From an uncultured Ruminococcus sp. (GTDB taxonomy: Bacteria > Bacillota > Clostridia > Oscillospirales > CAG-272), in NCBI GenBank assembly GCA_902778725.1, contig CACYYS010000001.1, positions 12,130 to 76,129 of the forward strand: a DNA stretch of 64,000 bases, in the 5' to 3' direction. Below are positions 2,334-33,689 of this stretch, piece after piece (the first letter of the stretch is position 1; every line of letters begins with the position of its first letter). The translations under genes and the position numbers were made by a program. The notes beneath the pieces are model-generated. The model worked only from the letters and a program-made list of their open reading frames with translations, was not told where the DNA came from and did no database searches.

Positions 2334-4148
2334 ATGCAAAAGAAACCGGAAGCTCTCTATATTGACGAGGTATTTCCTGTTAACAAAAGGAACATCGGCA
2401 TCTGTATTCTCTTATCGATTATTACATGTGGAATTTACGGAATATATTGGCAGTATTTGCTCGTAAAAAACACAAAAATAATCAAAAAAGAAGAATCAAG
2501 CTGCACAGGGGAAATGCTGTGCCTGATATTCGTTCCTTTTTACTTTCTTTATTGGTTTTTTACCAGAGGTAAAATCATAAAGGATGAATTTGCAAAATAC
2601 GGTTATTCTGCTACCGGAAACGAGATTGCCTACTTAGTTCTCAACATTTTCGGTTTGGGCATTGTCTCTATGGCAATCATGCAAAACGATTTCAACTCGT
2701 TGCCGTCTGAGTTTACCCAATCAATTCAGCGAAACTACAGGAAACCGATCAAACCGATCACAAACAAGGTACTCTGGATCTTCGCCGTCGGGCAGCTCGG
2801 CTGGAGCCTGCTCTCCGGCATCATCTCCACCTGGCTCGTCCACCTGTACGCGGGCAACGTCGGGCTCGGCGGGACCAACGGCATTTTCAGCACGCTGATC
2901 ACCCAGGCGCCGATCCTCGCGTCCCTCACCCTTTTCGGGGTGATCACCGCGGTCGGCCGTCTCTTTGACGCGGTCACCGACCCGCTGATCGCCAGCTGGT
3001 CCGACCGTTCGGATTTCAAGGGCGGACGCCGCATCCCGTTCATGAAGGCGATCGCCGTCCCCTTCGCCGCGATCACCGTCGCCGTCTTCTGCGTCCCCGT
3101 GACCTCCTCGGTCGCCTTCAACGATACGATGATCTTCATTCTGCTGATGCTTTTCTACCTTTTCATGACGATCTACTGCACCCCCTATAACGCCCTGATC
3201 GCCGAGCTCGGAGACACGCAGGAGCACCGCATCAACGTTTCCACCTACATTTCCTTTACCTATATCGCCGGCTTCTCGCTTGCGACCTTCATGCCCAACC
3301 TCGCCGGGATGCTCGAGGGGATCGCCGGCAGCCAGGCGGCGTCCATCCGCCTCGCCATCGGCGTGATGTGCGCGATCGCCGCGATCGCGATGATGATCCC
3401 CGCCTTCTATATCAAGGAGCGCGACTATATCGACTCCAAACCGGTGAAGACCCCGGCGTTCAAGTCGCTGGTCGCCACCTTCGGCAACGGGCAGTTCCGC
3501 CGTTTCGTTTACGCGGACGTGATCTACTTCTTCGCCGTCACCCTCTTCCAGACGGGCCTTGCGGATTTTGAGACCAATCTGATGGGGATCGGCTCCGACC
3601 AGACCTTCCTTCTGACCGTCCTTATGACGGTCGTCAGCCTTGCGCTTTATCCCGTCGTCAACCGCCTCGCGCCGAAAGCGGGGAAGAAGACGCTGATCGT
3701 CGTCGGCTTCTTCAGCTATGCCGCCGTCTTTTTCATCACCTCGATCTCGAACGCGCCCTTCTTCGGCTATCTGATCGCGGTGCTGGCCGGCGTCCCGATG
3801 GCGATCCTCGGGATCCTGCCGCAGGCGTGCGTCGCCGACGTCTCGGAGCTGAGCACTCTGGAGACCGGCGAGGACCGCAGCGGGATGTTCTTTGCCGCCC
3901 GGACCTTCGCGATGAAGATGGGGCAGGCGCTCTCGATGCTGATCTATACCTCTCTCACCGTCTCCCGTCTGACGGAGAGCGGGACAAAGGTCGTCAGCGA
4001 GGGGCAGTACCGCACCGTCGCCGTCGTCGCCACCGTCGCCTGCCTGATCGGCGCCTTCCTCTTCTTCCTCTACGGGGAGAAGCGGATCCTCTCCCGCATC
4101 CGGGAGCTGCGCGCCGCGAAAAAGGCGGAAGCGACGGAGGAGAACTGA
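2334..4148 (+). CDS. DUF4234-like two-TM module fused to a GPH-family (MelB/YicJ-type) glycoside:cation symporter
   Basis: ATG at 2334 is preceded by GGAGGA. The N-terminus ILLSIITCGIYGIYWQYLLVKN matches the DUF4234 hallmark. From about aa 145, GQLGWSLLSG...FDAVTDPLIASWSDRSDFKGGRRIPFM is GPH-family. It is one continuous ORF with no RBS at the internal Met codons. Confidence 0.8.
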   Translation: MQKKPEALYIDEVFPVNKRNIGICILLSIITCGIYGIYWQYLLVKNTKIIKKEESSCTGEMLCLIFVPFYFLYWFFTRGKIIKDEFAKYGYSATGNEIAYLVLNIFGLGIVSMAIMQNDFNSLPSEFTQSIQRNYRKPIKPITNKVLWIFAVGQLGWSLLSGIISTWLVHLYAGNVGLGGTNGIFSTLITQAPILASLTLFGVITAVGRLFDAVTDPLIASWSDRSDFKGGRRIPFMKAIAVPFAAITVAVFCVPVTSSVAFNDTMIFILLMLFYLFMTIYCTPYNALIAELGDTQEHRINVSTYISFTYIAGFSLATFMPNLAGMLEGIAGSQAASIRLAIGVMCAIAAIAMMIPAFYIKERDYIDSKPVKTPAFKSLVATFGNGQFRRFVYADVIYFFAVTLFQTGLADFETNLMGIGSDQTFLLTVLMTVVSLALYPVVNRLAPKAGKKTLIVVGFFSYAAVFFITSISNAPFFGYLIAVLAGVPMAILGILPQACVADVSELSTLETGEDRSGMFFAARTFAMKMGQALSMLIYTSLTVSRLTESGTKVVSEGQYRTVAVVATVACLIGAFLFFLYGEKRILSRIRELRAAKKAEATEEN

Positions 4149-4151
4149 CGG

Positions 4152-5780
4152 ATGGGAGACTTCCGGTTTTCCTCACTCCGGCTCCGGTTCCGGGACGGGG
4201 AGCGGCGGGACGCCGTCCTGCGTGAGAGCGGGCGCGTCGGCGCGCTCTCGGCCGATCTGCGGGCGGACGGAGAGGGGATCGGCCTCACCCTCGCGCCCGA
4301 GGGGGAGGCGACGCTGGAGAGCGTTTCGGCGCTCTTCGATTTCACCTTCCGGCCGGACGACCGCCTCTTCTTAAACGGCTACCAGAGCTGGACCGACAGT
4401 TATGAGCATACCGCGGGGGAGCGGATCCGTCCCCTCGGAGCGCTGCCCCGGATGCTCGACGGACGTTTCGGCTTTTCCGCCTACGGAGATTACCGCTTCA
4501 CAAAGACCGAGCGCAGGCGCGGACGGCTGCACGGCTTTTCCTACGCCTACGTCCGGCGGGGCGCGGAGTGGATCCTCTTCGGCTCCCTCGCGGAGGACAG
4601 CGGCTTTACCGTGATCCGCTTCCACACCGACCGGAACTGCATCCTGTTTGAAAAAGAGTGCGCCGGCCGCCGCCTGACCGCTCCCTACCGCGCGCTCTCC
4701 GTGCGCGTCTACCGCGGCGCGGAGGACGAGGTGTTCGACGCGTACTTTGCCGACCTCGGGATAGAAAAGACCGGCAAACGGCGCGTGGACGGCTACACGA
4801 GCTGGTACAACCGTTATCAGAACATCAGCGAGGAGAGCGTCACGGAGGATCTCGCCGGCTTTGCCGCGCAGAGCGAAAAGCCGGACTTCTTCCAGATCGA
4901 CGACGGCTATCAGACCGCCGTCGGCGACTGGCTCTCCGTCGATGAAAAAAAGTTCCCCCGCGGGATGGCGCCGATCGCGGAGAGGATCCGCGCGGCGGGC
5001 ATGACGCCGGGGATCTGGCTCGCGCCCTTTGCGGCGGAGCGCACCTCACGGCTGGTCGCCGAGCATCCCGACTGGCTGCTTCGCGGGGAGGACGGCAAGC
5101 CCGTCTTCGCCGGCGGCAACTGGTCCGGCTTCTATGCGCTCGATCTCGACCGCCCGGAGGTCGTCTCCTATCTCGAGCGGGTCTTTTCCGCCGTGATACG
5201 CGAATGGGGCTACCGGCTCCTCAAGCTCGATTTCCTCTACGCCGCCTGCCTTGTTCCGACCCCGGACGCCACGCGCGGCGAGCGGATGGCAAAGGCGGTC
5301 GACCTCCTCCTCCGGCTCACCGAGGGCGCGGAGATCCTTGCGTGCGGCGTGCCGCTCGCCTCCGTCTTCGGCAAGGTCGCCTACTGCCGGATCGGCTGCG
5401 ACGTGGCGCTCTCCTTCGACGGAGATTTCTACCTCCGTCCGATGCACCGGGAGCGCCCCTCGACCAAGTTCTCGCTCCTCAATACCCTTTACCGCCGGCA
5501 GCTGAACGGCCGCGCCTTCCTCTCGGATCCGGACGTCTTCCTTTTGCGGGACGACAATATGGAGATGACCCCGGAGGAGCGGAAGACCCTGCTCACCCTC
5601 AACGCTCTCTGCGGCGGCGTGCTCTTTACCTCCGACAACGTCGGCGCCTATTCCGACGAAAAAAAGCGCCTGCTCCGGGAGGCGAAAAAGCTTACCCCCG
5701 CCGATCTCCTCTCGGTGGAGAGGGAGAAGAAGACCGTTACCGTCTCCTATACTGGCGGAACGCTGACGCTCAAGCTCTGA
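4152..5780 (+). CDS. Alpha-galactosidase-like glycoside hydrolase (GH36/clan GH-D type)
   Basis: DGYTSWYNRYQNI...FFQIDDGYQTAVGDWLSVDEKKFPRGMAPIAERIRAAGMTPGIWLAPF and GYRLLKLDFLY are melibiase-type motifs. It starts 3 nt after the sugar symporter. Confidence 0.75.
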   Translation: MGDFRFSSLRLRFRDGERRDAVLRESGRVGALSADLRADGEGIGLTLAPEGEATLESVSALFDFTFRPDDRLFLNGYQSWTDSYEHTAGERIRPLGALPRMLDGRFGFSAYGDYRFTKTERRRGRLHGFSYAYVRRGAEWILFGSLAEDSGFTVIRFHTDRNCILFEKECAGRRLTAPYRALSVRVYRGAEDEVFDAYFADLGIEKTGKRRVDGYTSWYNRYQNISEESVTEDLAGFAAQSEKPDFFQIDDGYQTAVGDWLSVDEKKFPRGMAPIAERIRAAGMTPGIWLAPFAAERTSRLVAEHPDWLLRGEDGKPVFAGGNWSGFYALDLDRPEVVSYLERVFSAVIREWGYRLLKLDFLYAACLVPTPDATRGERMAKAVDLLLRLTEGAEILACGVPLASVFGKVAYCRIGCDVALSFDGDFYLRPMHRERPSTKFSLLNTLYRRQLNGRAFLSDPDVFLLRDDNMEMTPEERKTLLTLNALCGGVLFTSDNVGAYSDEKKRLLREAKKLTPADLLSVEREKKTVTVSYTGGTLTLKL

Positions 5781-5793
5781 AAAAAAGGAAAAA

Positions 5794-5830
5794 AGCCGTC
5801 TCACGGTTCCGTGAGACGGCTTTTCTGCGT
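5794..5830. terminator. Bidirectional intrinsic terminator
   Basis: AAGCCGTCTCACGG-ttc-CGTGAGACGGCTT, with an A-run upstream and a T-run downstream. Lies between convergent genes. Confidence 0.75.
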
Positions 5831-5854: not shown

Positions 5855-6157
5855 TCAGCCGACGTTTTTCATGAACGAGGTCCCGAGCCAGATCAAAAGG
5901 ACCATCGAGACGGGCAGCAGGATCAGCGCGGCGGTCATGCTCCACAGCCCCGCGAGCGCGCTGAGCGCGGGGGAGAGCGAAACGAGCGCGATCACCTTTG
6001 CAAGCTGCGCCGCGTACCGCCGGGGATCCTTCGGCTTTACCGACTGTCTCGCGCGGATCGGGAGCATCTTATAGTCCTTTGTCAGCGCCAAAAGTCCGGC
6101 GTAGAGCAGGATCGCCCCCGCAAAGATCCCCATCAGGATCGAATAGCCGTATTCCAT
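5855..6157 (-). CDS. Small membrane protein (about 3 TM), probable last gene of the zinc-ribbon operon
   Basis: 100-aa ORF with a GGAGG 6 nt before the ATG at 6157. Hydrophobic segments ILMGIFAGAILLYAGLLAL, VIALVSLSPALSALAGLW and AALILLPVSMVLLIWL. No convincing terminator in the 71-nt gap after 6229. Confidence 0.6.
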   Translation of the reverse strand: MEYGYSILMGIFAGAILLYAGLLALTKDYKMLPIRARQSVKPKDPRRYAAQLAKVIALVSLSPALSALAGLWSMTAALILLPVSMVLLIWLGTSFMKNVG

Positions 6158-6228: not shown

Positions 6229-8568
6229 TCAGTCGTCGTCTTCCAGGGAGTTTTTGATTTCGTCCGCCGCAAACGCGCCCGCGGCTTCCTTGACGCCCTC
6301 TTTTGTCACTTCGGAATCGAGCAGGTGACCGACGACCTCTCCGCCGCCTTCGCCTATGACCGCGTCTCCGACTTTCCCGCCGACCAAATCAACGGTTTTG
6401 TCGACAGCGAAGTTCAGCGCGCCCTGCTTGGCGGCCTTGTTGCCTTCTTTAAGGGCTTTTTCCAGGCTTTTGCCTCTTGCGAGAGAATCCGTTGTTGCGG
6501 CGATACCGTCGCCGGTCACGTTGGCGGTCCCTTCCGCGGCGAAGCCGACAACGCCTCCGCCCGCCCAGTCGCTCGCGTGATTCTTGGCGATCTCGGCGCT
6601 GGTTTTAACGGTCGCGGCCGACATCGCGCCCGAGAAGGATTTTTCGCCCGTGGCGACTTCCATCAACCCCTGACCGTAAGCCTTGCCGGCTTGGTAACCG
6701 TCCTTGACCAGCTTTGCGGTGCCGGTCTTATCGAACTTTTCGAGCACGTCAAGCGCAACGTCGGCGGCTTTTTCGGTCTGCTTTGCGGTCTTATAACCCG
6801 CGTCCATGTATTCCGCCCGGCCCTCGGCTTCGGCGCCTTTCTGATAATCGTCCATCTGATCTCTTATCACGGCTTTTCTGACGTCTTTTTCATCGCCGAC
6901 GAATACGCCGTGATTGGCGCCGACCTTCTTCACATAAGCGTCGTGTTCGGCGTTTTCTCTTTCCTTTTTCTCCGCGGCCTCCCGTTCGGCGCGCGCCTCG
7001 GTGCTGTAGAAGGACTCGTCCTGATTTGCGGCGCGCTGCTCCTCGGCGGCTTTTTTCGCCTGCGCCGCGTCTTTACGGATCAGGCCCGCGTTTTCGGCGC
7101 GGCTGTCAAGCGCGTCCTTCAGCTCCGTTTCGGTATAAGTCGCACCGGTCAGCGGGTTCGTATAGGTACCGTCTCCGTTTGAGACGTAGGTATTCTGTTC
7201 TCCGGTGGCGGGGTCGCGCGTTACAAGATCGCCGTCGCCGTCGCGTGTGATATAGGGCCCCAGATCGCTGTGATCCGCCGGCGCGGGCGCGTCAAGGTCC
7301 TCCGCCGCGGTCCCGGCAGCCTCCACAGCGGAGCTGCCCGCCGCGGACGCCGCGCTGCCGGCGGCTCCGCCGAGCGCGGAGCCGGCGATGCCTCCTCCCG
7401 CTCCGACGAGGACGGTCGTGACACTTACCACAACAACACCGATCGCGGATCCCGGCTGATCAAGATAATCCGGATTATGCACCAGCTTTTGCCGTATCAC
7501 ACGGTCGGCGTAGTCGATATCGCCGTCTCTGTCGAAATCCATCATATCGGGAAACGGCTGACCGTATTTGTTCGTCTGACCGTTGTGGTAGGTGAGACGG
7601 CCGTTGTACATGACGTAGGCATCGTCATCCCCTTCCTCCGCGGCGACGGGCAGCGAGAAAAACGGCGCCAGAGTCAAGCCGAACATCAGCACAAGCGCAG
7701 CGATCGCGGCGGCTTTTTTGCCCTTCCCGTTTATCAGGATCGAAGATACGATCCCGGCCGCGAGCAGTAAGGCGCCGACGGAGAAAATGATGATCGGATA
7801 TCTGGCGAAGGTGATCGGGAAAGAAACGGCGAAACCGGCCGACACACCCGTAAGGAGTCGGCTTACGGCGGTTCTCGACGGCGCTTTTCCCTTTGAAAGC
7901 TTGCCGACAAGCGTAAAAACAAGGGAGAAGAGGACGCCGCTCTGGCTGCCCGCCGCGCGTATCGCGGCGACGGCGCCGACGATCGCCGCCGCGCTGTTGA
8001 TCGGCGCGGACGTGATATTGAAGAACCAGTACAGAAGGATCCCGGCGCCGCCTCCGATCAGATACGGCGATACGGCGGAAACCCCTGTTACGGCCGCTCC
8101 CTTGAAGCCTTTTTTCATTCCCTTGAACGGATTTTGCTTATTGACGAGCGCAAGCACGAACGAGTTTACGACAGCGACGAACAGCGCTTTGCCGAAAATG
8201 CCGCCGATCGCGCCGAAGAGACCGCCGTACATCCCGCCGTTTGAATAGGTGAGCGTATAGAGGAACCTGAGCGCCGGGATATTGGCGCCGAGCCCGGACA
8301 TCAGCGAGAAAACCGTCCATATTACCGACAGCACGATGGCGGGGATCAGCTTTTTGGGGTGCTTGAAGAAATCGATGATCTGCTCCTTCCATTCGGCGAA
8401 AAATCCGGTTTTCGTCTGATTGGCGGACCCTCCTTCCCGTTTCGGTTTCTGCTGAGGCTGCCGCGTCTGCGCCTGCGGCGCGGCCGGCGCGGCCTGCGTG
8501 CCGCATACGGGGCAGAATCTTGCGCCTTCCTCCAATTCCTTGCCGCATTTTTGACAGAATTTTGCCAT
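6229..8568 (-). CDS. Zinc-ribbon / polytopic membrane / long C-terminal coiled, Ala-Gly-rich protein (779 aa), function unknown
   Basis: ORF 6229..8694 trimmed to the ATG at 8568 (MAKFCQKCGKELEEGARFCPVCG) with an AAGGAGAG RBS. It has a Q/P linker, a glycine-rich multi-TM domain, a DFDRDGDIDYAD loop, a further TM, and then about 370 aa rich in A/E/K/G. Confidence 0.8.
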   Translation of the reverse strand: MAKFCQKCGKELEEGARFCPVCGTQAAPAAPQAQTRQPQQKPKREGGSANQTKTGFFAEWKEQIIDFFKHPKKLIPAIVLSVIWTVFSLMSGLGANIPALRFLYTLTYSNGGMYGGLFGAIGGIFGKALFVAVVNSFVLALVNKQNPFKGMKKGFKGAAVTGVSAVSPYLIGGGAGILLYWFFNITSAPINSAAAIVGAVAAIRAAGSQSGVLFSLVFTLVGKLSKGKAPSRTAVSRLLTGVSAGFAVSFPITFARYPIIIFSVGALLLAAGIVSSILINGKGKKAAAIAALVLMFGLTLAPFFSLPVAAEEGDDDAYVMYNGRLTYHNGQTNKYGQPFPDMMDFDRDGDIDYADRVIRQKLVHNPDYLDQPGSAIGVVVVSVTTVLVGAGGGIAGSALGGAAGSAASAAGSSAVEAAGTAAEDLDAPAPADHSDLGPYITRDGDGDLVTRDPATGEQNTYVSNGDGTYTNPLTGATYTETELKDALDSRAENAGLIRKDAAQAKKAAEEQRAANQDESFYSTEARAEREAAEKKERENAEHDAYVKKVGANHGVFVGDEKDVRKAVIRDQMDDYQKGAEAEGRAEYMDAGYKTAKQTEKAADVALDVLEKFDKTGTAKLVKDGYQAGKAYGQGLMEVATGEKSFSGAMSAATVKTSAEIAKNHASDWAGGGVVGFAAEGTANVTGDGIAATTDSLARGKSLEKALKEGNKAAKQGALNFAVDKTVDLVGGKVGDAVIGEGGGEVVGHLLDSEVTKEGVKEAAGAFAADEIKNSLEDDD

Positions 8569-8669: not shown

Positions 8670-9404
8670 TTACTTCAGCAGGGGCAGATCGCATTTTTTA
8701 CACCGGTCGGCCTCAACGGGATTTTTTGTTCCGCAGTTCACGCAGGCGAGATACGGCGCACGGGATTTATCGTACAGCTCATACGGGAAAGGGAACTGCG
8801 GATGATATCGGAAGCGGTCGCCGATCTCCAGGTAGTTGTACGCCCAGAGCTGCGATCCCTCGTATTCGACGATCTTCTTTTTCTTTCCGTCGGCCGTTCT
8901 CACGACGGTGATATATTCGGTGATACGCTCACGGGAATCCGAGGTTCCGTGACGGTAGGTATCGCGGGAGCTCTTGTCGATCACCGTCGCTTCGTAGGTG
9001 TTCTTTGCGCGTTCCCTGATGAAACTGAAAAGCGCGAAAACAAGGAACACCGCCGAAACGATCCCGCCGATCATCGCCGCCTGAGCGATCTCCATCTGAT
9101 CGCTGACGACGCTGTAGATCACAAAGCCGATCAGCGGTAGCGGAACGAGGAAGAAGGCGAAGACGCCCGCCGCCTTGCGGTTTTTCTTGACGGCGGCGAG
9201 GATCTCCGGGTGGTTCACCCGGTCCGAGAACCCCGGCGCGGGGATCCCCTGCCGTACGGCGCCGGTCCCGGCGCAGGCGGGCGCTCCGTACGCGGGAGCG
9301 CCGTTCGGCTGCGCCGGCGCGGCGTTTTGCGCCGCGCCGCAGTTCGGGCAGAATTTAGTGTTTTCCTCTGTTGGCGCTCCGCAGTTCTGACAGAATTTTG
9401 ACAT
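8670..9404 (-). CDS. Double zinc-ribbon membrane protein (244 aa), function unknown
   Basis: MSKFCQNCGAPTEENTKFCPNCG at the N-terminus and CVNCGTKNPVEADRCKKCD at the C-terminus. Two TM segments lie between them. AAGGAGGGA RBS before the ATG at 9404. Confidence 0.8.
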   Translation of the reverse strand: MSKFCQNCGAPTEENTKFCPNCGAAQNAAPAQPNGAPAYGAPACAGTGAVRQGIPAPGFSDRVNHPEILAAVKKNRKAAGVFAFFLVPLPLIGFVIYSVVSDQMEIAQAAMIGGIVSAVFLVFALFSFIRERAKNTYEATVIDKSSRDTYRHGTSDSRERITEYITVVRTADGKKKKIVEYEGSQLWAYNYLEIGDRFRYHPQFPFPYELYDKSRAPYLACVNCGTKNPVEADRCKKCDLPLLK

Positions 9405-9440
9405 ATCGTTCCCTCCTTGGTTCTTTCATTCTTTGGTTCC

Positions 9441-12400
9441 TTAATTCTTTGCCGGCGGGAGCGGGGGGTCCTTTGGCACATCGATTACGGATGCTGAGAA
9501 TGGCACGCTTCCGTATAACTCATTGAAAAGATATGCGAAGAAGCCGCCTTCGGCTATGATCTGTCCCGTTTTCGATATCGCGTCGGACAGCGCTTTGTTC
9601 ACGTCGACCGCGCACTCGTAGTTTTTATTGTTTACTTCAAAGTAGAACGTAACGATCAGATGACCGTCTGAGTTGAATTCAAATCCGTTCTGCGACGAAA
9701 TAAACTTGTCGTGGATCTTGGTGTCGAGTTCCACAAGTTTGTCGATCCCCATACCGAACAGACCGTCGAGGTACTTGCGAAGTATTTCCGATCTCGTCAG
9801 TCCGTCGACCGCGCGCAGATCGAGCAGCGTCGCCGACGAACCGAGATGCTTGCTGACGAACGAGCCGCACCACGCGCTCAGTTTGGCGCGGAAGCCGGGG
9901 CATTTTTTTAGCGCGGCGTCGAACAGATGACCCGCTGCAGCTTTCAGACCCGTTGCCGTCGTATCCGCGAAACCGTGGACTATCGCTCCGTAAAGATCGA
10001 ACTTGTTCTCCTCGCGCAGCGTCATATAAAAGTTCTTTATCGAAGCGAATGCGAAATACGCGCCGAGCGTATACGCCGCCTGCTTCCAGTTTGCGAAGCT
10101 GATATTGCCGGATACGAAGTTGTCGAATATCGCGAACACGTTTTTGCTGAAGTTGAAATTATCGGGGTTTACGGATTGGCCGCGCATCCAGCACGCCACT
10201 GTCTCGCCAATCGCCTCGGCGAGAAAGTCCTTCGTCGGCGATATTATCGCGTCCGCGACGGGACCGGCGTACATATTCACGAGTATCGAAAAGGCGCAGT
10301 CGCCGAAGAATTTTGCCCATTCAAGGTAATCTATGATGACGTCGTATACCTTGGCTTCGTCCTGGCTCTTCATACTCTGGATCGTCCAGTAGGTCATATA
10401 CTGGCGTACGATCCATTTGCTCGTGAGCCTCAGCTCTTCGGTCGTACAGCGCGGATCCTCGGCAAGACTTGCGAGACGTTTGAGCAGATCGTCCTTGTTT
10501 TCCGGCAGGGAGAATTTTTCGATGCGTCCTTTCAGCTTATCGTATTCCTCTTCCCATCCCGCCATCGGGTCGAAATCTTTGCCGCGCAGTCTCAGCGGTA
10601 TATCGGCTTTATATTCTTCGCCGTCATATTCTGCGGTGCAGGGAAGCAATACGATGAAGAACTTCCCGTCGTCCGGCTCGCAGAGCGTTGAATTCGGCTC
10701 GAAATCGTAGGTGAACTTTTCGTTCAGAATACCGTACGACTCTTTATATTCAAATTTCTCCGCGATCGACTGTTCCTTGTCGGCGCGCATTCCGAGCCCG
10801 CCCGCGCCCTTGAGCTTTTCAAACTTGTATTCGGCTTCCTTCGGGTCGATGATCGCCTTGTCCTTGCCGGTGTGGGCGAGCGTGAATTTGATCTCGGAAA
10901 CCTGCCACTTTTTGTCGAGATCGCCGGCGTATTCCTTTTCGTACGCCTGCACGCGGACGTATTTGACGCTGTTCTTCTTGCCCTCCTGCGTGGAGGAGAC
11001 CGTGATCCCCTCGGGATAGAGAGTCACCGTGACGTAGCCCTTGACCGGCTCCTTTTCGCCCTCGACCGCGACGCGGATCTCGAAGTTCCTGTCCTTCGGC
11101 TTCTCGAAGATATCGTGATCCGGCTCGGGCTTGGTGTTGTTCTTTACGTTCATCCGGTAGACCGCCGGCCGGTCGGTCAACTCGAACTCCACGTCAAACT
11201 CGCCCGGGTTGACGGCGGTGATGTCGGAGAGCTTGGGTGCCGTCGGCGCGTCCACTATCGCAAAGCGCTCCGTATAGGTAAATCCGTCGCCGGGGATCGC
11301 GTCGATGCCGCATCCGCTGCCGTACAGCGTCCCGTCGGATTCGTCGATGAATTTGAGCTGAGGACCGTCGACCACCCGGAAAACGACGGTGTTGGTAAAG
11401 CTGCCGCCCTCTCCCGTAAAGGTAAAGGTGATGCTCGCCGTGTCCTTATCGTATTCTTTCGGCACGCTGACCGTCGCCTCGCAGTAGCGTCCGGCGAGCG
11501 CGGCGCCGTGCACGGTCATGCCGTCGGCGGAGACTGCGATCAGCGCGGTCAGATCGCCGCGGTCCCGCTCGGCCGTCCCCTCGACCTCCGCCATCCTCGC
11601 GCGGATCACCACGGGCTTGTCGCCGCCGCGTCTTATCGCGTCGCCGAAGTCCTTCTGCACGTACATCTTGTACGTTTTCTGCGTTCTCTTTTTATCGTCG
11701 GCGCCGCCGGACGCCGCCGCCGCGCCCGCGACCGCCGCGCCGCCGCCCAAGACGCCGATCACGATCGCCGCGGGGACGGATACGCCGCCGTCCTCGCCGG
11801 GGTCCGTCTCGGCGTGCTTGGTAACGCCCGCGATATTGAAGCCCTCGTAAGTGATCGGTTCGTCCGCTTTGACCTCCGGCATCATACTGTACAGAGTCGG
11901 CGCCATGGCGACAGTCGCCTTCCATTTTTCCATCATATCGTTGTACAGATCCACCGCTTCTTTTTTGGGGCTTACCAGGCCGATCTTGTGGCCGGTCAGC
12001 CGGTTAAGCAGCACATGATTTACGGTATATGCGTCAGAGATCCCGGGAATGCGGGTATAGTAGTAGTATTCGTAGGTTTCCTGAGTCGATTCGTACTTCA
12101 ATTCCTCGATCAGCGTAGAACCGCCTTCGTGGTACTTGAGTCTTTTATAGGTTTCCTTGGGTGAATCGTCCCATAAGCTGTGGTAGGCGACAAGGATACT
12201 GTCTCCGCCGCCCTGGCGCTCCACGGTTATGGTATTTCTCTCGTCTGTATTAGCCTCTTTTTCCTTATTCCATTCTTCGTACTGATTCTGCGCCGCATCC
12301 TCCATTGTGGGGGTGTTGCCGTATTTCATATGATAGAGGGTGATATGCGGCTGATTCGCCACCACGTAGCCGTAACAATACGCTTCCGTTTCCCCCGGCT

Positions 12401-12881
12401 GAAGACCCTTGTTCTCCCTGCTGAAATCCTCGTAGTAGTATTGATACTGATATTCGTTGATATAGTCGTCGACCATATTGTCCTTGACGTCATTGCGCCC
12501 GGCCGAGAAGTCCGCAACGTAATATCTGTACTTGCGGCCCGGCGTATACAGGCTCGTATATGCGGAGGGGAGTTTATAGGTGAGATGGACCTTCTGCTCA
12601 AACAGGCGGTACCCCGGTTTCTCCTTGGCGTCCCGGGCGTTGAACAGATAGTAAAGCAAAAGCTTCTCGCCTGTATCCGTAACCTTGTCCGGGTACGTGT
12701 CGCCCCAGTAGAAGTCCAGTTCAAAATTGTTCCGCGTTTCCGCCCTGACTTCATAATTGGGATTGTTGATGAATTTGTCATAATTGAAGAGGTCCGCCGC
12801 AAGCGAGGGGAATGCGAGATACGGGACGGTCAGGAACGCCGCGAACGCGCCGCACAACAGTTTCAGCAGGATCTTTTTCAT
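9441..12881 (-). CDS. Large exported/membrane protein (1146 aa), no recognisable domain
   Basis: ORF 9441..13244 trimmed to the ATG at 12881, which gives a signal peptide MKKILLKLLCGAFAAFLTVPYLAFPSLAADL. Mid-chain TM VPAAIVIGVLGGGAAVAGAAAA is followed by DDKKRTQK. The ATGA start/stop overlap with the upstream gene supports this start. Confidence 0.8.
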   Translation of the reverse strand: MKKILLKLLCGAFAAFLTVPYLAFPSLAADLFNYDKFINNPNYEVRAETRNNFELDFYWGDTYPDKVTDTGEKLLLYYLFNARDAKEKPGYRLFEQKVHLTYKLPSAYTSLYTPGRKYRYYVADFSAGRNDVKDNMVDDYINEYQYQYYYEDFSRENKGLQPGETEAYCYGYVVANQPHITLYHMKYGNTPTMEDAAQNQYEEWNKEKEANTDERNTITVERQGGGDSILVAYHSLWDDSPKETYKRLKYHEGGSTLIEELKYESTQETYEYYYYTRIPGISDAYTVNHVLLNRLTGHKIGLVSPKKEAVDLYNDMMEKWKATVAMAPTLYSMMPEVKADEPITYEGFNIAGVTKHAETDPGEDGGVSVPAAIVIGVLGGGAAVAGAAAASGGADDKKRTQKTYKMYVQKDFGDAIRRGGDKPVVIRARMAEVEGTAERDRGDLTALIAVSADGMTVHGAALAGRYCEATVSVPKEYDKDTASITFTFTGEGGSFTNTVVFRVVDGPQLKFIDESDGTLYGSGCGIDAIPGDGFTYTERFAIVDAPTAPKLSDITAVNPGEFDVEFELTDRPAVYRMNVKNNTKPEPDHDIFEKPKDRNFEIRVAVEGEKEPVKGYVTVTLYPEGITVSSTQEGKKNSVKYVRVQAYEKEYAGDLDKKWQVSEIKFTLAHTGKDKAIIDPKEAEYKFEKLKGAGGLGMRADKEQSIAEKFEYKESYGILNEKFTYDFEPNSTLCEPDDGKFFIVLLPCTAEYDGEEYKADIPLRLRGKDFDPMAGWEEEYDKLKGRIEKFSLPENKDDLLKRLASLAEDPRCTTEELRLTSKWIVRQYMTYWTIQSMKSQDEAKVYDVIIDYLEWAKFFGDCAFSILVNMYAGPVADAIISPTKDFLAEAIGETVACWMRGQSVNPDNFNFSKNVFAIFDNFVSGNISFANWKQAAYTLGAYFAFASIKNFYMTLREENKFDLYGAIVHGFADTTATGLKAAAGHLFDAALKKCPGFRAKLSAWCGSFVSKHLGSSATLLDLRAVDGLTRSEILRKYLDGLFGMGIDKLVELDTKIHDKFISSQNGFEFNSDGHLIVTFYFEVNNKNYECAVDVNKALSDAISKTGQIIAEGGFFAYLFNELYGSVPFSASVIDVPKDPPLPPAKN

Positions 12882-13810
12882 GCTTTCGCCCCCTTTCCGA
12901 ATTTGACGACGCCCGTCGCCTGCAGGATCATTATCACGCCGCCGCCGGCAAACAGCAGACCGCCGAAAATGAGCAGAATAAGCTTGACGCCGGTCATTCC
13001 GAGCAAAGCCGCCGCCGCAAAACCGGCGGCAAGCCCGCGGACGATCCCCGAAACGTTCGGGTGCGACGCGTTTTTGCTCTTTGTGAACGATCCGAGCAGC
13101 TGCCGTAAAAATCCGCCGGACAGCGCCGCTCTCGCCGCGAGGAACGCCGCCGCGATCCCGCCCATAAAAGAGGCGCGGGTCGCCCCGCCGGAGATGAATA
13201 AGTAGAGAAGCATTGCCGCGCCGATCCCGCAGAGATACGCCCACAGCGTATCAAGCGAGACGCCGAAGGCGCCCTTGACCGTCTCCCCGAAGGACCGCTT
13301 CACGCCGCCCTTGCGGGTAAAGAGCCCGATCAGCGAGACGAGCGCGCCGGCGAAGATCCCTTTGCCGACGATCCCGCCGACGGCGCCGATGACGCCGCCC
13401 GACGTCCCGCCGCCCGCAAAGGTGAGGAAGGAGAGGATCCGCGTCGGAAACGGGTTTACTCCGCACGCCTGCAGAACGTTCAAAACGAGCCACACGAGAG
13501 CCAGCGCGAGCGCGGGGATCAGACGCTTCGGGTCCTTTACCGCCGCGCCGACAGAGGAGAAGAACGATTTCAGACCCGCTCCGATCACTCCGCCCGGTTC
13601 CGAAATCGCGTTCGATACGGCTCTCGCCGCGGTATCGGCGACCGCGCCGCACGCCGCCTCGCCCGAAAAAGCCGGAGCGGTAAAGTTGAATTTCTGCGGC
13701 TCCGGCGGCTGCTGCGCCGGGCCGTCCGGTACGCCGCCGATCGCGCTCCCGCATTTGCCGCAGAAGCGCGCGGTATCCGCCAGCTCGTTTCCGCATTTCG
13801 GACAGAACAT
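12878..13810 (-). CDS. Zinc-ribbon / glycine-rich polytopic membrane protein (310 aa), function unknown
   Basis: MFCPKCGNELADTARFCGKCG, then a Pro-rich linker and a multi-TM domain paralogous to aa 68-300 of the 6229..8568 product. GGAGG RBS before the ATG at 13810. Confidence 0.85.
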   Translation of the reverse strand: MFCPKCGNELADTARFCGKCGSAIGGVPDGPAQQPPEPQKFNFTAPAFSGEAACGAVADTAARAVSNAISEPGGVIGAGLKSFFSSVGAAVKDPKRLIPALALALVWLVLNVLQACGVNPFPTRILSFLTFAGGGTSGGVIGAVGGIVGKGIFAGALVSLIGLFTRKGGVKRSFGETVKGAFGVSLDTLWAYLCGIGAAMLLYLFISGGATRASFMGGIAAAFLAARAALSGGFLRQLLGSFTKSKNASHPNVSGIVRGLAAGFAAAALLGMTGVKLILLIFGGLLFAGGGVIMILQATGVVKFGKGAKA

Positions 13811-13847: not shown

Positions 13848-13876
13848 ATTATACTAAAGGGAACGGAACGTCTCAA
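13848..13876 (-). promoter_or_regulatory. Candidate SigA-type promoter of the zinc-ribbon operon
   Basis: Minus strand reads TTGAGA (13871-13876), a 17-nt spacer, then TATAAT (13848-13853), about 40 nt upstream of the ATG at 13810. Confidence 0.55.
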
Positions 13877-13983: not shown

Positions 13984-15795
13984 ATGTTCCGGCAAAGGAT
14001 AAAAGAGTTACTCTCTCTGCTCGGGGTCGGCTCGGCCGACCTTGCGCGCCTCGCGGGGTGCGACCAGTCGCATATCAGCCGGATGGTCAGCGGCGCCCGC
14101 GTACCGAAAAACGGCGGCGCCGGCGCGTGGCGCCTGGTGCAGGGCGTCTATCTCTGCGCCGACGAAAAGGGGATGGTCAACGCGCTCTGCGACCTTGTTT
14201 CCTGCGGCGACCGGGGAGACGCCGACGCCGTCCGGCGGGCGGTGATGCTTTATCTCTACAAGGGGGAGGCGCCGCGCGGGGCGGGAGCGCCGAGGGAGAA
14301 GACGCCCTACCGCGCCTTCGGGGAGAGGCTCGGCGCCGTCATGGATCTGACCGGGCTCTCGAACATCCGCCTCGGCAAAGCCCTCAATCTCGATCCCTCC
14401 TACGTCAGCCGCTTCCGCAACGGCTTCCGCTCGCCGAAAGCGAATCCGAAGACGATGAGCGATCTCTGCCTCTTTCTGCTCGACCGGACCTTTGAACAGG
14501 GCAAGGAGGGGGAGCTGGCGCGCCTGACGGGCGAGCCGGTCGAAGAGTTTTCCGACCGGGAGAAGGCGGCGGAGATCCTCTATCTCTGGCTTTACAGCAA
14601 CGACGGAGGGGACAGCGGCCCCCTCGTGGAAAGGTTGATCGACCAGATCGGCTTCTTCTCCGCAAAGGTCAAAAAGCCGCCGCTCTCCTTTGAGGCGGCG
14701 GCGGACACGGAGATCCTCGCGGATACGGCGGAGACCTATTACGGAAGGGAGGGACTGCGGCGCGCGGTCATCCGCTTCCTCGGCAGCGTCATCCGGCGGG
14801 GGGAGCGGGAGCTCTTCCTCTATTCCGACCAGAATATGGACTGGATGGTCTCCGATCCTCTTTTCCGCGCAAAATGGGCGACGCTGATGGCGCTCTCCGT
14901 CGCCGGAGGCGTGAAGATCACCATCATCCACAACATCAACCGCGATCTCTCCGAGATGGCGTCGGCGATCGAGAGCTGGCTGCCGCTCTATCCCTCCGGC
15001 AGGATCCGTTCCTACTACTGCAAAACGCCGCACCGGCCGCGTTTTTCCGCCACGCTTTTCCTCTGCCCGGGCTGCGCCTGCATCTTTGGCTGCAACGTGA
15101 TCGGCGCGGAGGACGGGACGGGGATGTACCGCTACGATACCGACCCCGCGCAGCTTGCGGCGCACGGGGCGGCGTACCGCGAGCTGCTCTCCCGCTCCGG
15201 GGAACTGGTCAGGGTGTACCGGACGTCGGATCTCACGTATCCGGAACGGCGGGACGGTTCCGCGTTCGCCGTTTTCGGCGGCGCGCTCTCCCTCGCCACG
15301 ATGCCGGAGGAGGTCCTGCGTTCCGCGCTCGGGCGCAGCGGAGCGGACGAAGAGAGGAAAAAATACCTTCTCCGGCTCCGGGAGGAACGCTTCGCTTTTC
15401 TGAAGCGGAGCGCGGAGCGGGGCGGTTTTCACGAATACGCGCCCGTGGCGGCGGCGGAGGCGCTCCCGGGCGGCTCGGTCCGGATGGATCTGCCGGAGCT
15501 TTCCGTTTCCTACACGCCGCGGGAGTACGCGGCGCACGTCCGCCGCGTCATCGGGATCTCGGAGGAGCTGGTCGGCTACCGGTTCTATATTCTGCCGGAA
15601 GCGCCGTTCGAGGACGTGAAGGTCCTTATTTCCGACAGCGCCGTCGCCGTTTCCCGCCTGCGGGAGCCCTACCTCACCTTCCTCTTCGAGCATCCGGATC
15701 TCTGCCGCGCCTTTCTCGCTTACGCCGCGCGGATCCGGGATCAGTACAGCCAGGACAAGCTGACGACAAAGCGTATCCTCGAACGCTTCCTTTGA
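13984..15795 (+). CDS. Transcriptional regulator with two XRE-type HTH modules and a large unassigned C-terminal domain (603 aa)
   Basis: ORF 13891..15795 trimmed to the ATG at 13984 (MFRQRIKELL). HTH1 is LGVGSADLARLAGCDQSHISRMVSGARVP and HTH2 is TGLSNIRLGKALNLDPSYVSRFRNGFRSP. Confidence 0.75.
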   Translation: MFRQRIKELLSLLGVGSADLARLAGCDQSHISRMVSGARVPKNGGAGAWRLVQGVYLCADEKGMVNALCDLVSCGDRGDADAVRRAVMLYLYKGEAPRGAGAPREKTPYRAFGERLGAVMDLTGLSNIRLGKALNLDPSYVSRFRNGFRSPKANPKTMSDLCLFLLDRTFEQGKEGELARLTGEPVEEFSDREKAAEILYLWLYSNDGGDSGPLVERLIDQIGFFSAKVKKPPLSFEAAADTEILADTAETYYGREGLRRAVIRFLGSVIRRGERELFLYSDQNMDWMVSDPLFRAKWATLMALSVAGGVKITIIHNINRDLSEMASAIESWLPLYPSGRIRSYYCKTPHRPRFSATLFLCPGCACIFGCNVIGAEDGTGMYRYDTDPAQLAAHGAAYRELLSRSGELVRVYRTSDLTYPERRDGSAFAVFGGALSLATMPEEVLRSALGRSGADEERKKYLLRLREERFAFLKRSAERGGFHEYAPVAAAEALPGGSVRMDLPELSVSYTPREYAAHVRRVIGISEELVGYRFYILPEAPFEDVKVLISDSAVAVSRLREPYLTFLFEHPDLCRAFLAYAARIRDQYSQDKLTTKRILERFL

Positions 15796-29466: not shown

Positions 29467-29517
29467 TGCTTAGATCCACCGGGAAAAAGGCGGGGAAGCG
29501 GTCTTCTGTGAGGGACT

Positions 29518-30684: not shown

Positions 30685-30867
30685 GGCGCGGCTCCTTTCC
30701 GTTTTTGCTTGTTTACAGATCCAGCATAGCAGAAAAAATCGGGTTTTGCAAGTTTCGGGAGAAATCTTTTGTTTTTCTTAAACTTTCTTTAAATAGTTTC
30801 CTGTTTTTTTTTGCTTTCTCCCGCTTGCCACGGAAAAAACGCGATGCTGAGACGCTGCGGGCCGGGG

Positions 30868-30934
30868 GGAGGATATGAACACGCTCCCCCGAGCGAAAGG
30901 AAAAAGCCGCCCAAGCGTACCGGGCGGCTTTTTT
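30868..30934 (-). repeat. Modular hairpin repeat, partial copy C (left flank of the low-GC island)
   Basis: GGAGGATATGAACACGCTCCCCCGAGCGAAAGGAAAAAGCCGCCCAAGCGTACCGGGCGGCTTTT. Near-identical to 33839-33903. Confidence 0.85.
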
Positions 30935-30990
30935 GCAATGGATAGTGCGTTCGCAGCAAGACAAACAGAAGAAGAAAAAGAGAAAGCGAG

Positions 30991-32124: not shown

Positions 32125-32142
32125 TTTTTTACAAGATAAGAT

Positions 32143-33255: not shown

Positions 33256-33328
33256 ATCCTGCTTTTCTCCGCATTTGTTTTTTTGTCTGCAGATTGCGGT
33301 TTTGTTGTGTTCAAATGAGATCTTTTTC

Positions 33329-33357
33329 ATTATATCTGTATTACAGATAAAAGTCAA
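33329..33357 (-). promoter_or_regulatory. Promoter of the nuclease operon with an embedded palindromic operator
   Basis: Minus strand reads TTGACT (33352-33357), 17 nt, TATAAT (33329-33334). The spacer contains the palindrome TATCTGTAtTACAGATA (33333-33349). A third half-site TACAGATAT is at 33367-33375. Confidence 0.6.
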
Positions 33358-33406
33358 TATCTTTTTTACAGATATTCTAAAATAAAACAAAAAGGAGGCG
33401 AGGTAT

Positions 33407-33622
33407 ATGGTTTTCAAAAATCTCCGGGCGATCCGGGAGGATCGCGACCTCCGGCAGGCGGATCTGGCAAAGGTGCTGAACGTCTCGCAGAACACCTATT
33501 CGCAATATGAAAACGGTGTGATCTCGCTGACGGCGGAAACGTTGATCAAGCTTGCTCGGTTTTACGGGGTCAGCGTGGATTATCTGCTCGATCAGACGTC
33601 GGATCCGACCCCCTATCGCTGA
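33407..33622 (+). CDS. XRE-family HTH transcriptional regulator (71 aa)
   Basis: LRQADLAKVLNVSQNTYSQYENGVISLTAETLIKLARFYGVSVDYLL. AAGGAGG RBS. Divergent from the nuclease gene. Confidence 0.9.
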   Translation: MVFKNLRAIREDRDLRQADLAKVLNVSQNTYSQYENGVISLTAETLIKLARFYGVSVDYLLDQTSDPTPYR

Positions 33623-33689
33623 AAGCCGGCCTGTACGCGGGTCGGCTTTTTCTTTTAAAAAAAACGGCAGGAGCAAGTTCAATGTCGCA

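What the first reader, a model, noticed from the sequence alone, without database searches (positions are those of the whole stretch)
7669..8367. Glycine-rich polytopic domain duplicated between the first and fourth genes of the operon
Seen: aa 68-300 of the 6229..8568 product align by eye with aa 91-310 of the 12878..13810 product (DNA 12881-13540). The first reads FKHPKKLIPAIVLSVIWTVFSLMSGLGANIPALRFLYTLTYSNGGMYGGLFGAIGGIFGKALFVAVVNSFVLALVNKQNPFKGMKKGFKGA... and the second reads VKDPKRLIPALALALVWLVLNVLQACGVNPFPTRILSFLTFAGGGTSGGVIGAVGGIVGKGIFAGALVSLIGLFTRKGGVKRSFGETVKGA.... My rough estimate is one third identical, with conserved GxxxG-type glycine zippers.
Inference: both proteins are a zinc ribbon plus linker plus this domain. 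The operon therefore carries two diverged paralogues that could form a heteromeric membrane core. Glycine-zipper-rich TMs are typical of channel-like assemblies.
Basis: seen in the sequence. Interest (0 to 1): 0.6.

Follow-up and report, generated by a model that had tools for sequence, protein, structure and literature searches.

The report
Unannotated six-helix membrane domain, duplicated
Two genes of one operon share a real, ancient, so far unnamed six-helix membrane domain behind a zinc ribbon; in dozens of genomes this domain sits directly in front of, or is fused to, a large signal-peptide protein (sometimes an RHS toxin), so it looks like the fixed membrane partner of a modular surface or effector protein system whose function is unknown.

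Summary
Residues 69-286 of the 779-aa product (6229..8568, "A") and 92-310 of the 310-aa product (12878..13810, "D") are homologous. They share 36% identity over 213 pairs, and 45 of the 77 identities are not Gly or Ala. Domain-only, composition-adjusted BLASTP gives E=2e-5, and profile-profile comparison gives E=9e-34 over 223 columns.

Both proteins are a zinc ribbon, a linker and a roughly 230-aa domain of six predicted membrane helices. This domain matches nothing in Pfam, NCBIfam, PADLOC, PHROGs or PDB.

The "heteromeric core" reading is not what comparative genomics suggests. In 79 related loci there are 70 stand-alone genes for this domain. Each is followed on the same strand by a large partner: the family of window gene "B" (40 cases), the family of A's own C-terminal part (16), or others (11), four of which are RHS-repeat proteins. 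The usual junction is a 4-nt ATGA overlap, as between D and B here.

The window therefore carries two parallel modules, D+B (split) and A (fused). All partners share a signal peptide, a variable outer domain, an Ala/Gly-rich hydrophobic helix and an interchangeable C-terminal payload.

My best guess is that the domain docks or handles that helix. Function and topology of the payload remain untested.

The parts
12878..13810 (-). Gene D, 310 aa: zinc ribbon (aa 2-23), Pro/Ala-rich linker, amphipathic helix, and six predicted membrane helices (aa 92-310).
   Evidence: Pfam Zn_Ribbon_1 E=4.5e-9. More than 147 homologues, with no other Pfam domain. AlphaFold2 model with pLDDT 65 is all-helical after residue 72. 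Hydropathy and K/R distribution fit an N-in/C-in topology with 6 TM helices.
12881..13537 (-). Shared six-helix domain, copy in D (aa 92-310).
   Evidence: Columns invariant across both families: PK before helix 1, W in helix 1, and GGxxGGxxGxxGGxxGK in helix 2.
9441..12881 (-). Gene B, 1146 aa, partner of D. It has a signal peptide (aa 1-28), a variable outer domain (to about aa 360), an Ala/Gly-rich hydrophobic helix (aa 367-390), four Ig-like beta-sandwiches (about aa 400-770), a helical region (about aa 775-1050) and a small beta domain.
   Evidence: Its ATG overlaps D's TGA as ATGA. 100 homologues, none with a Pfam domain; the C-terminal 70% is conserved and the N-terminus is variable. 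AlphaFold2 gives pLDDT 80-90 for aa 400-800. Foldseek matches are tandem Ig/cadherin-like domains only.
8670..9404 (-). Gene C, 244 aa: zinc ribbon, 2 TM helices, a small beta-rich domain and a second zinc ribbon. It is a recurrent accessory gene.
   Evidence: Pfam Zn_Ribbon_1 matches twice; DUF2500 is only faint. C-like genes are present in 15 of the 79 related loci.
6229..8568 (-). Gene A, 779 aa: a fusion of an A-type zinc-ribbon/six-helix protein with its partner protein.
   Evidence: 126 homologues. In 16 loci the two halves are separate adjacent genes, for example L049, L066 and L078.
7711..8364 (-). Shared six-helix domain, copy in A (aa 69-286).
7639..7725 (-). Internal signal-peptide-like segment of A (aa 282-310): KGKK, a hydrophobic core, then PVAA|EE.
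   Evidence: Hydropathy. The same n-h-c layout with a V-[FS]-A-A-[ED] end is seen in most of the 137 fused family members examined. Cleavage is inferred, not shown.
7444..7638 (-). Short outer segment of A (aa 311-375) with the conserved motif GRLTYxNGxxNKxGQPFPDxMDFDxDGDIDYAD.
   Evidence: Conserved in A-family sequences, while the flanking outer region varies from about 70 to more than 600 aa. The acidic DxDxDG loop is read directly from the sequence.
7357..7443 (-). Ala/Gly-rich hydrophobic helix of A (aa 376-404), the counterpart of B aa 367-390.
   Evidence: It is the only stretch where the A-C and B profiles align (E=0.014, not significant).
6232..7356 (-). C-terminal 'payload' of A (aa 405-779): a DPxTGxxxYxxNGDGTYTNPxTGATYT hairpin motif, a charged coiled coil, and a Gly/Ala-rich helical region.
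   Evidence: No significant Pfam or PDB match; the best PDB hit is CdiA at E=0.34. Homologous to separate genes in L049 (E=2e-22) and, through L049, to L056.
5855..6157 (-). Gene S, 100 aa, three predicted TM helices, the last gene of the operon.
   Evidence: Hydropathy. S-like genes follow B-family genes in L009 and L024. No family match.
13848..13876 (-). Promoter-like site TTGAGA-17-TATAAT upstream of D.
   Evidence: 11 of 12 consensus matches. AGAGGAGG lies 7 nt before D's ATG. This is a consensus match only.
5789..5826 (.). Strong bidirectional terminator-like hairpin after gene S.
   Evidence: 17-pair stem with 8 GC pairs and a T tract.
13984..15795 (+). Divergent regulator, about 603 aa, with two XRE-type HTH motifs and a large C-terminal domain.
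   Evidence: Pfam HTH_31 and HTH_3. 58% identical to the divergent gene in L001. Present next to the module in 9 loci.

Best explanation
The shared region is a genuine, old and unannotated membrane domain of about 230 residues. It has six predicted helices and an N-in/C-in topology, and is preceded by a cytoplasmic zinc ribbon and a disordered linker.

It is the constant half of a two-part module. The other half is a large 'cargo' protein that is encoded immediately downstream, typically with an ATGA stop/start overlap, or is fused to the domain. Every cargo has the following parts:
- a signal peptide;
- a variable outer domain;
- a conserved juxtamembrane motif ([H/D]-x-G-P) followed by an Ala/Gly-rich hydrophobic helix with a Gly/Ser/Ala tail;
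- an interchangeable C-terminal payload, which can be B-type (Ig-like domains plus helices), A-C-type (coiled coil plus Gly-rich helices) or an RHS-repeat cocoon.

The window carries two such modules in one operon: D+B as split genes, and A as a fused gene.

Inferred mechanism: the six-helix domain uses its invariant glycine-zipper helix (GGxxGGxxGxxGGxxGK) to bind the cargo's Ala/Gly-rich helix in the membrane. In this way it would dock, assemble or hand over the cargo, for display or release. Co-translation (coupling or fusion) would put the two together at the same membrane site. In fused forms the retained V-x-A|A-E site suggests that signal peptidase separates the two halves.

Shown: homology, architecture, synteny, coupling, fusion and payload swapping.
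Inferred: physical contact, the role of the zipper, cleavage, and the effector-like purpose.
For: - Homology of the two copies.
- The family is real and fairly broad. It has 576 representatives at 50% clustering with E<=1e-3 and 217 with E<=1e-30, always as a single copy per protein. Of 337 full-domain proteins examined, 194 are stand-alone and 137 fused.
- It is found in Clostridia, Bacilli, Syntrophomonadaceae and methanogenic archaea.
- Of 70 stand-alone genes, 67 have a same-strand downstream gene: B family 40, A-C family 16, other 11. 31 of the 40 B junctions are -4 nt overlaps, and the window's D/B junction is ATGA.
- Domain subtype tracks partner type: D-type with B 34 times, A-type with A-C 17 times plus 2 fused.
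- The fusion works as a Rosetta stone. Window A equals the two adjacent genes of L049, L066, L078 and others.
- Payloads are swapped on one N-terminal module. The RHS-type cargo of L035 and the A-C-type cargo of L056 share 41% identity over 309 N-terminal residues (E=5e-34) but have different C-terminal parts.
- Four cargos are RHS proteins, with RHS_repeat up to E=1.8e-85, DUF6531 in all four, and the RHS core domain detected in L035, the only complete one.
- All cargo classes carry the Ala/Gly-rich helix.
- There are no conserved Asp, Glu, His, Ser or Cys in the domain, only Gly, Pro, Lys, Trp and Thr, which argues for a structural rather than enzymatic role.
- The signal-peptidase-like motif is kept at fusion junctions.
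Against: - No direct evidence of contact between the domain and the cargo helix.
- The AlphaFold2 model of D is mediocre (pLDDT 65), and the cargo helix region of B is below 50.
- Topology of the payload is unresolved. If the Ala/Gly-rich helix spans the membrane, the payloads, including the RHS cocoons and B's Ig-like domains, are cytoplasmic. That fits poorly with display or delivery.
- In B the helix is followed by KKRxxK, which suggests that side is inside. In the A-C and RHS types both flanks are acidic.
- The window's own payloads (B and A-C) are conserved, not polymorphic. They contain no known toxin domain, and no immunity gene has been identified.
- RHS cargos are a minority: 4 of 70, from related lineages.
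Confidence: 0.45

Rival explanations
1. One reading: D and the N-terminal part of A assemble with each other into a heteromeric, channel-like membrane core. Glycine zippers would mediate the tight helix packing typical of pores.
For: - Both copies are in one operon here and in a close relative, L084, which has D-B-C-x-A.
- The invariant glycine zipper with a Lys in helix 2 is present in both families.
- Glycine zippers are frequent in channel-forming proteins; this is established knowledge and was not tested here.
Against: - Most loci contain one subtype only: 34 D-type/B pairs and 17 A-type/A-C pairs.
- Fused A-type genes occur alone in L085 and L086.
- Loci with two copies are D-B-D-B tandems, that is duplicated modules.
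- There is no fold or sequence similarity to any channel: Foldseek against PDB gives E>1, and the best PDB profile hit is otopetrin at E=0.11.
Confidence: 0.12
2. Transmembrane sensing module. The cargo proteins would be receptors whose variable outer domains bind environmental or cell-surface ligands. The six-helix protein with its cytoplasmic zinc ribbon would relay or gate the signal, with the adjacent regulators as output.
For: - In B and A the outer domains are variable while the parts after the hydrophobic helix are conserved.
- A conserved divergent two-HTH regulator is found in 9 loci, and a membrane-bound LuxR/GerE regulator in 20 loci.
- K/R residues after B's helix place its conserved part in the cytoplasm.
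Against: - No recognisable signalling domain (kinase, cyclase, anti-sigma) in any component.
- RHS cocoons as receptor output domains would be without precedent.
- The regulators differ between lineages, so they are not part of the core.
Confidence: 0.2
3. Membrane-anchored suicide or defence device. The payload (RHS-encased toxin or membrane-active helices) would be held inside the cell and released when the outer domain detects phage or a competitor.
For: - The predicted topology, if the Ala/Gly helix spans the membrane.
- Carriage on mobile DNA. 18.9 kb is 99.93% identical between Robinsoniella and Anaerotignum, next to a MobL relaxase, a Toprim protein and a coupling protein. A serine recombinase and TnpV are present in L085.
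- Several copies per genome in some MAGs.
Against: No match to any PADLOC defence model except HTH noise. No hits in phage or plasmid collections. No defence genes were recognised next to the window's operon, where the flanking genes are a sugar transporter, a melibiase and an ABC exporter.
Confidence: 0.1
4. The similarity is an artefact of Gly/Ala-rich, hydrophobic composition rather than common descent.
For: The domains are 12-18% Gly, and the raw GxxxG count in D is no higher than in shuffles.
Against: Composition-adjusted E=2e-5 without the zinc ribbon. z=12.8 against local-composition shuffles. 45 non-Gly/Ala identities. hhalign E=9e-34 with collinear invariant residues.
Confidence: 0.01

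Closest known systems
Rhs/polymorphic effectors with N-terminal transmembrane helices and a cognate accessory gene encoded just upstream (T6SS prePAAR effectors with Eag/DUF1795 chaperones; from my own knowledge)
   Same: A constant N-terminal module containing hydrophobic helices, an interchangeable C-terminal payload that can be an RHS cocoon, and a dedicated small partner gene immediately upstream.
   Different: There is no PAAR, no DUF1795 and no T6SS, and the hosts are monoderm Firmicutes and archaea. The partner here is itself a polytopic membrane protein with a zinc ribbon. The cargo also has a Sec-type signal peptide. The payloads in the window are conserved and contain no known toxin domain.
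Polymorphic toxin systems of Gram-positive bacteria (Zhang et al. 2012, PMC3482391; S8-PTS, PMC9424270)
   Same: The same modular logic (trafficking region plus swappable C-terminus), RHS-bearing members, and carriage on mobile elements.
   Different: None of the described trafficking types was recognised here, whether Sec-only, T7SS LXG/WXG, PrsW-linked or S8 peptidase. No immunity gene was identified. The S8-PTS paper describes a different N-terminal domain and a peptidase that is absent here.
Glycine-zipper membrane proteins (Pfam Gly-zipper families; pore formers such as the T7SS toxin TelE, 10.1101/2022.09.07.506920)
   Same: A position-invariant GxxxGxxxG-type zipper in a hydrophobic helix.
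   Different: No Pfam glycine-zipper family matches at E<=1. The domain has six helices and is not a secreted toxin tail. The zipper carries an invariant Lys.
Zinc-ribbon-headed membrane proteins of Firmicutes and archaea (Pfam PF13240 Zn_Ribbon_1 fused to TM regions)
   Same: An N-terminal CxxC...CxxC ribbon above the Pfam cut-off, followed by a low-complexity linker and TM helices.
   Different: PF13240 describes only the first roughly 23 residues. It says nothing about the 230-residue domain, which has no model of its own.

Membership tests
Pfam PF13240 Zn_Ribbon_1 | Score above the gathering cut-off (25 bits) with four Cys in a CxxC...CxxC arrangement | tested here: met
   A scores 34.7 bits over aa 4-24. 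D scores 36.2 bits over aa 2-23. C scores 36.7 bits with two stretches.
Any curated family covering the six-helix domain (Pfam-A, NCBIfam, PADLOC, PHROGs, PDB sequences) | A significant profile match over the domain | tested here: not met
   No hit over the domain in Pfam at E<=1, NCBIfam at E<=0.1, PADLOC, or PHROGs (ribbon-only hits). The best PDB profile search hit is E=0.11. Ten distant family members also show nothing.
Known membrane folds (solved structures) | Foldseek match with E<=0.001 to a PDB chain | tested here: inconclusive
Pfam glycine-zipper families (Gly-zipper_Omp, Gly-zipper_YMGG, Rick_17kDa_Anti) | A profile match | tested here: not met
   Absent from the hmmscan output at E<=1 for A and D.
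Polymorphic toxin system | A constant N-terminal region combined with alternative C-terminal domains among relatives | tested here: met
   This is met in related loci. L035 (RHS) and L056 (A-C type) share the N-terminal module (E=5e-34) but have different C-termini. Within the window's own B and A families the C-termini are conserved.
Polymorphic toxin system | A recognisable toxin domain at the C-terminal tip | tested here: not met
   No toxin domain was found in A or B or after the RHS core of L035 at E<=0.01.
Polymorphic toxin system | A cognate immunity gene immediately downstream that neutralises the toxin | not testable with these tools
   Candidates exist: gene C after B and gene S after A, and S-like genes follow B-family genes in L009 and L024. 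Nothing shows that they confer immunity.
T6SS prePAAR/Eag effector-chaperone pairs | A PAAR or prePAAR motif in the effector and a DUF1795 chaperone | tested here: not met
   Neither domain appears in any protein scanned.
Holins | A small protein (under about 150 aa) with 1-4 TM helices, next to an endolysin, in a phage context | tested here: not met
   D is 310 aa with six helices. No lysin is adjacent, there are no PHROG holin hits, and there is no match in 50,697 phage records.

The most novel reading that the evidence does not exclude
The zinc-ribbon/six-helix protein is the core of a previously unknown, Sec-assisted handling pathway of monoderm bacteria and some archaea for large effectors. 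It would receive the cargo's Ala/Gly-rich helix from the translocon and keep it from acting as a stop-transfer anchor, or turn it into a releasable anchor. Payloads such as RHS cocoons would then reach the cell surface and neighbouring cells. That would make it a Gram-positive and archaeal counterpart of contact-dependent delivery systems, spread by conjugative elements.
Probability: 0.2. Interest if true: 0.85.

Novelty: new variant of a known kind. Interest (0 to 1): 0.6.

Why it matters
It is not known how large RHS-type and other modular proteins with internal hydrophobic helices are handled in Gram-positive bacteria and archaea outside the T7SS. This family gives a concrete, testable candidate for that role.

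The family is compact and invariantly co-encoded or fused with its partner. It has about 576 sequence clusters, is present in gut and rumen Clostridia and in methanogens, and is carried on a conjugative element shared almost identically by two genera.

It also removes about 230 residues of "hypothetical membrane protein" from the unknown pile by defining a domain, its boundaries, its invariant residues and its obligatory neighbour. If the module instead proves to be a sensor or a defence device, it would still be a new architecture.

Tried and rejected
- Family scans gave only zinc-ribbon or HTH hits: Pfam, NCBIfam, PADLOC and PHROGs on all operon proteins, and Pfam on ten distant domain carriers.
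- PDB searches found nothing significant: the domain profile and A's C-terminal 380 aa (CdiA at E=0.34, not significant).
- Structure searches were uninformative. The D model has no PDB match with E<1. The B model gives only generic tandem Ig-like matches in PDB and BFVD.
- tblastn of D against plasmid and phage collections gave no match.
- No internal 3+3 repeat in the six-helix domain (hhalign probability 0.8%).
- No homology between the B and A-C payloads. Only the hydrophobic helix aligns, at E=0.014.
- GxxxG enrichment as a raw count is not significant in D.
- The search for related loci with the mixed alignment failed because no stretch was conserved enough. The D-family alignment worked.
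- Two literature searches and one paper found no description of this domain or module.
- I considered and dropped several roles. An enzyme (sortase, protease or insertase-like) is unlikely because no polar catalytic-type residues are invariant. An anti-sigma factor is unlikely because there is no ZAS or RsgI_N domain.
Full report
WHAT IS THERE

The minus strand between 13876 and 5789 carries one operon. It starts at a promoter-like site (TTGAGA-17-TATAAT, 11 of 12 matches) and an AGAGGAGG ribosome-binding site. The genes, in order of transcription, are:
- D: 12878..13810, 310 aa
- B: 9441..12881, 1146 aa
- C: 8670..9404, 244 aa
- A: 6229..8568, 779 aa
- S: 5855..6157, 100 aa

A strong hairpin terminator at 5826..5789 ends the operon. 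D's stop codon and B's start codon overlap as ATGA. A regulator of about 603 aa with two HTH motifs is transcribed divergently.

CHECK OF THE OBSERVATION

The evidence for homology is:
- Full-length BLASTP of A against D gives E=3e-11.
- Without the zinc ribbons, composition-adjusted BLASTP gives E=2e-5, 36% identity over 116 ungapped residues.
- Smith-Waterman scores exceed all shuffles. z is 26 for global shuffles and 12.8 for shuffles that keep local composition. The weaker second half alone gives z of 6.4-7.8.
- The alignment covers A 69-286 and D 92-310. It has 213 pairs and 77 identities, 45 of them not Gly or Ala.
- Profiles of the two families align over 223 columns with probability 99.9% and E=9.4e-34.
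- Columns invariant in both families are a Pro-Lys before helix 1, a Trp in helix 1, a Thr in the first outer loop, and GGxxGGxxGxxGGxxGK in helix 2.

The paralogy is therefore real and is not a composition artefact. One correction applies: the shared domain ends at about A residue 286, and residues 287-310 are a different element (see the section on A as a fusion).

ANATOMY OF THE DOMAIN

Both proteins begin with a Pfam Zn_Ribbon_1 motif that scores above the cut-off. A Pro/Gln/Ala-rich linker and an amphipathic helix follow.

Hydropathy gives six hydrophobic segments. K/R-rich loops alternate with K/R-poor ones in the pattern expected for N-in/C-in. The AlphaFold2 model is all-helical but only moderately confident, with pLDDT 65.

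There is no internal repeat. No Asp, Glu, His, Ser or Cys is invariant, so an enzymatic role is unlikely.

Nothing known matches the domain. Pfam, NCBIfam, PADLOC, PHROGs, PDB sequences and Foldseek against PDB all gave no significant match over it.

THE FAMILY

D has at least 147 relatives and A at least 126. The only names their sources give them are "zinc-ribbon domain-containing protein" and similar generic labels.

A profile of the shared domain finds 576 cluster representatives among 1.84 billion (217 of them at E<=1e-30). The domain always occurs as one copy near the N-terminus. Of 337 full-length domains examined, 194 are stand-alone and 137 are fused to long C-terminal extensions.

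Species-level genomes with the domain include rumen and gut Clostridia, Bacilli and Syntrophomonadaceae. Cultured carriers are Robinsoniella peoriensis, Anaerotignum sp. MB30-C6, Sedimentibacter hydroxybenzoicus and Methanoculleus chikugoensis; the other archaeal carriers (Methanoculleus, Methanocorpusculum) are MAGs.

THE DECISIVE CONTEXT

I called ORFs in the 79 loci and classified them with HMMs. There are 70 stand-alone domain genes. The next gene on the same strand is:
- a B-family gene in 40 cases;
- a gene homologous to the C-terminal part of A ("A-C") in 16 cases;
- another large gene in 11 cases, most of them with a signal peptide.

31 of the 40 B junctions are -4 nt overlaps. Domain subtype follows partner type: D-type with B 34 times, and A-type with A-C 17 times plus 2 fusions.

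Loci with two copies are D-B-D-B tandems (L001, L008, L011). Fused A-type genes occur without any D-type gene (L085, L086). A close relative keeps the window's order D-B-C-x-A (L084).

The window therefore holds two parallel modules. A heteromer of the two paralogues is not a general feature of the family.

A IS A FUSION

After the six-helix domain, A has a segment with the complete layout of a signal peptide: KGKK, a hydrophobic core, and PVAA|EE. Most of the fused family members examined show the same layout, ending in V-[FS]-A-A-[ED]. I infer that signal peptidase may separate the two halves.

Downstream of that segment come, in order:
- a short outer segment with a conserved DxDxDG-containing motif;
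- an Ala/Gly-rich hydrophobic helix;
- a conserved payload of about 375 residues, with a coiled coil and Gly-rich helices, that has no known relatives.

THE CARGOS

B has a signal peptide, a variable and poorly predicted outer domain, and an Ala/Gly-rich helix followed by KKRxxK. Next come four confidently modelled Ig-like sandwiches, a helical region and a small beta domain.

Four of the "other" cargos are RHS proteins: L035, L045, L068 and L071. They show RHS_repeat up to E=1.8e-85 and DUF6531, and L035, the only complete one, also has the RHS core.

All cargo classes share the same N-terminal layout. The non-B classes also share an H-A-G-P-L motif before the Ala/Gly-rich helix and a GGSxGSAGGAxAGA tail after it.

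The N-terminal module of an RHS cargo (L035) is 41% identical over 309 residues to that of an A-C-type cargo (L056; E=5e-34), while their C-terminal parts differ. L056's payload is in turn homologous to that of L049, and L049's to that of window A. One N-terminal module with alternative payloads is the design of polymorphic effectors.

B and A-C themselves are not detectably related beyond the hydrophobic helix.

MOBILITY AND ACCESSORIES

An 18.9-kb stretch with the A-type module is 99.93% identical between Robinsoniella and Anaerotignum. It lies beside a MobL relaxase, a Toprim/DUF3991 protein and a type-IV coupling protein.

Genes that recur in such clusters are:
- a membrane-bound LuxR/GerE regulator (20 loci);
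- a 172-187-aa protein (20 loci);
- a DUF4352 lipoprotein;
- C-like proteins, with two zinc ribbons flanking two TM helices and a small beta domain (15 loci).

There was no match in the plasmid or phage collections.

HOW IT MOST LIKELY WORKS

What is shown: the six-helix protein and the cargo are made together and stay genetically inseparable.

What I infer: the invariant glycine-zipper helix of the domain packs against the cargo's Ala/Gly-rich helix, and the domain thereby docks or processes the cargo in the membrane.

Whether the payload ends up outside or inside cannot be decided from sequence. Outside would mean display or delivery, and would suit RHS and Ig-like domains. Inside would mean a sensor or a suicide device, and is suggested by the K/R residues after B's helix.

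I give the docking-partner model 0.45, a sensor 0.2, the D-A heteromeric channel 0.12, and a defence device 0.1.

COMPARISON WITH KNOWN SYSTEMS

The logic resembles polymorphic or Rhs effectors that have their own upstream accessory gene. No defining component of T6SS, T7SS, CDI, S8-PTS or PrsW-type trafficking is present. The window's payloads are conserved and carry no known toxin domain, so I do not file it as a polymorphic toxin system.

VERDICT

- The domain and its obligatory partnership appear to be undescribed.
- Interest is 0.6.

Noticed in passing
L035:4572-9086, L045:2617-5631, L068:3299-5149, L071:4041-6236: RHS-repeat proteins with a signal peptide, an outer domain and an internal Ala/Gly-rich hydrophobic helix are encoded with a 4-nt overlap right after a zinc-ribbon/six-helix gene. 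The C-terminal roughly 230 aa of the L035 protein, after the RHS core, match no Pfam toxin domain.
   Followed up: partly
L049:1-18870 and L050:1-18870: 18.9 kb are 99.93% identical between Robinsoniella peoriensis and Anaerotignum sp. MB30-C6. The stretch carries a MobL relaxase with Sel1 repeats, Toprim/DUF3991, a coupling protein and the A-type module. This looks like recent transfer on a conjugative element.
   Followed up: partly
L070:8836-12960, L083:123-4240, L079/L081/L082 around 9001-13010: The D-type/B-type pair also occurs in methanogenic archaea (Methanocorpusculaceae, Methanoculleus). The G+C content of the module is close to that of its flanks, so any transfer across domains of life is not recent.
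   Followed up: partly
window 8670-9404 (-): Gene C has a zinc ribbon at each end, two TM helices and a small beta-rich domain (faint DUF2500 match; DUF3592-like relatives in other loci). C-like genes recur in 15 of the 79 loci and may be a third component or an immunity-like factor.
   Followed up: partly
window 5855-6157 (-): A small three-helix membrane protein closes the operon. Similar genes follow B-family genes in L009 and L024. No family match.
   Followed up: partly
window 15199-15279 (+): ARAGORN calls a tRNA-Val(CAC) inside the coding region of the divergent regulator. This is probably a false positive.
   Followed up: no
window 29500-34000: An island with G+C of 0.46-0.47, against about 0.62 elsewhere. 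It encodes a PD-(D/E)XK_4 nuclease-family protein (32143-33495, -), a zinc-ribbon protein (30991-32124, -) and an unassigned 388-aa ORF. It is possibly acquired DNA or a defence-type island.
   Followed up: partly
window 2334-4148 (+): A sugar transporter of the MFS_2 type carries an N-terminal DUF4234 domain and is followed by a melibiase-family gene (4152-5780).
   Followed up: no
window 12878-12881 and 31 related loci: The ATGA stop/start overlap between the six-helix gene and its cargo gene is conserved across distant lineages, which implies translational coupling.
   Followed up: yes
L049:6636-8234 and 19 other loci: A polytopic membrane protein with a C-terminal LuxR/GerE HTH precedes the module in 20 loci. 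It is followed by a conserved 172-187-aa membrane protein with no family match.
   Followed up: partly
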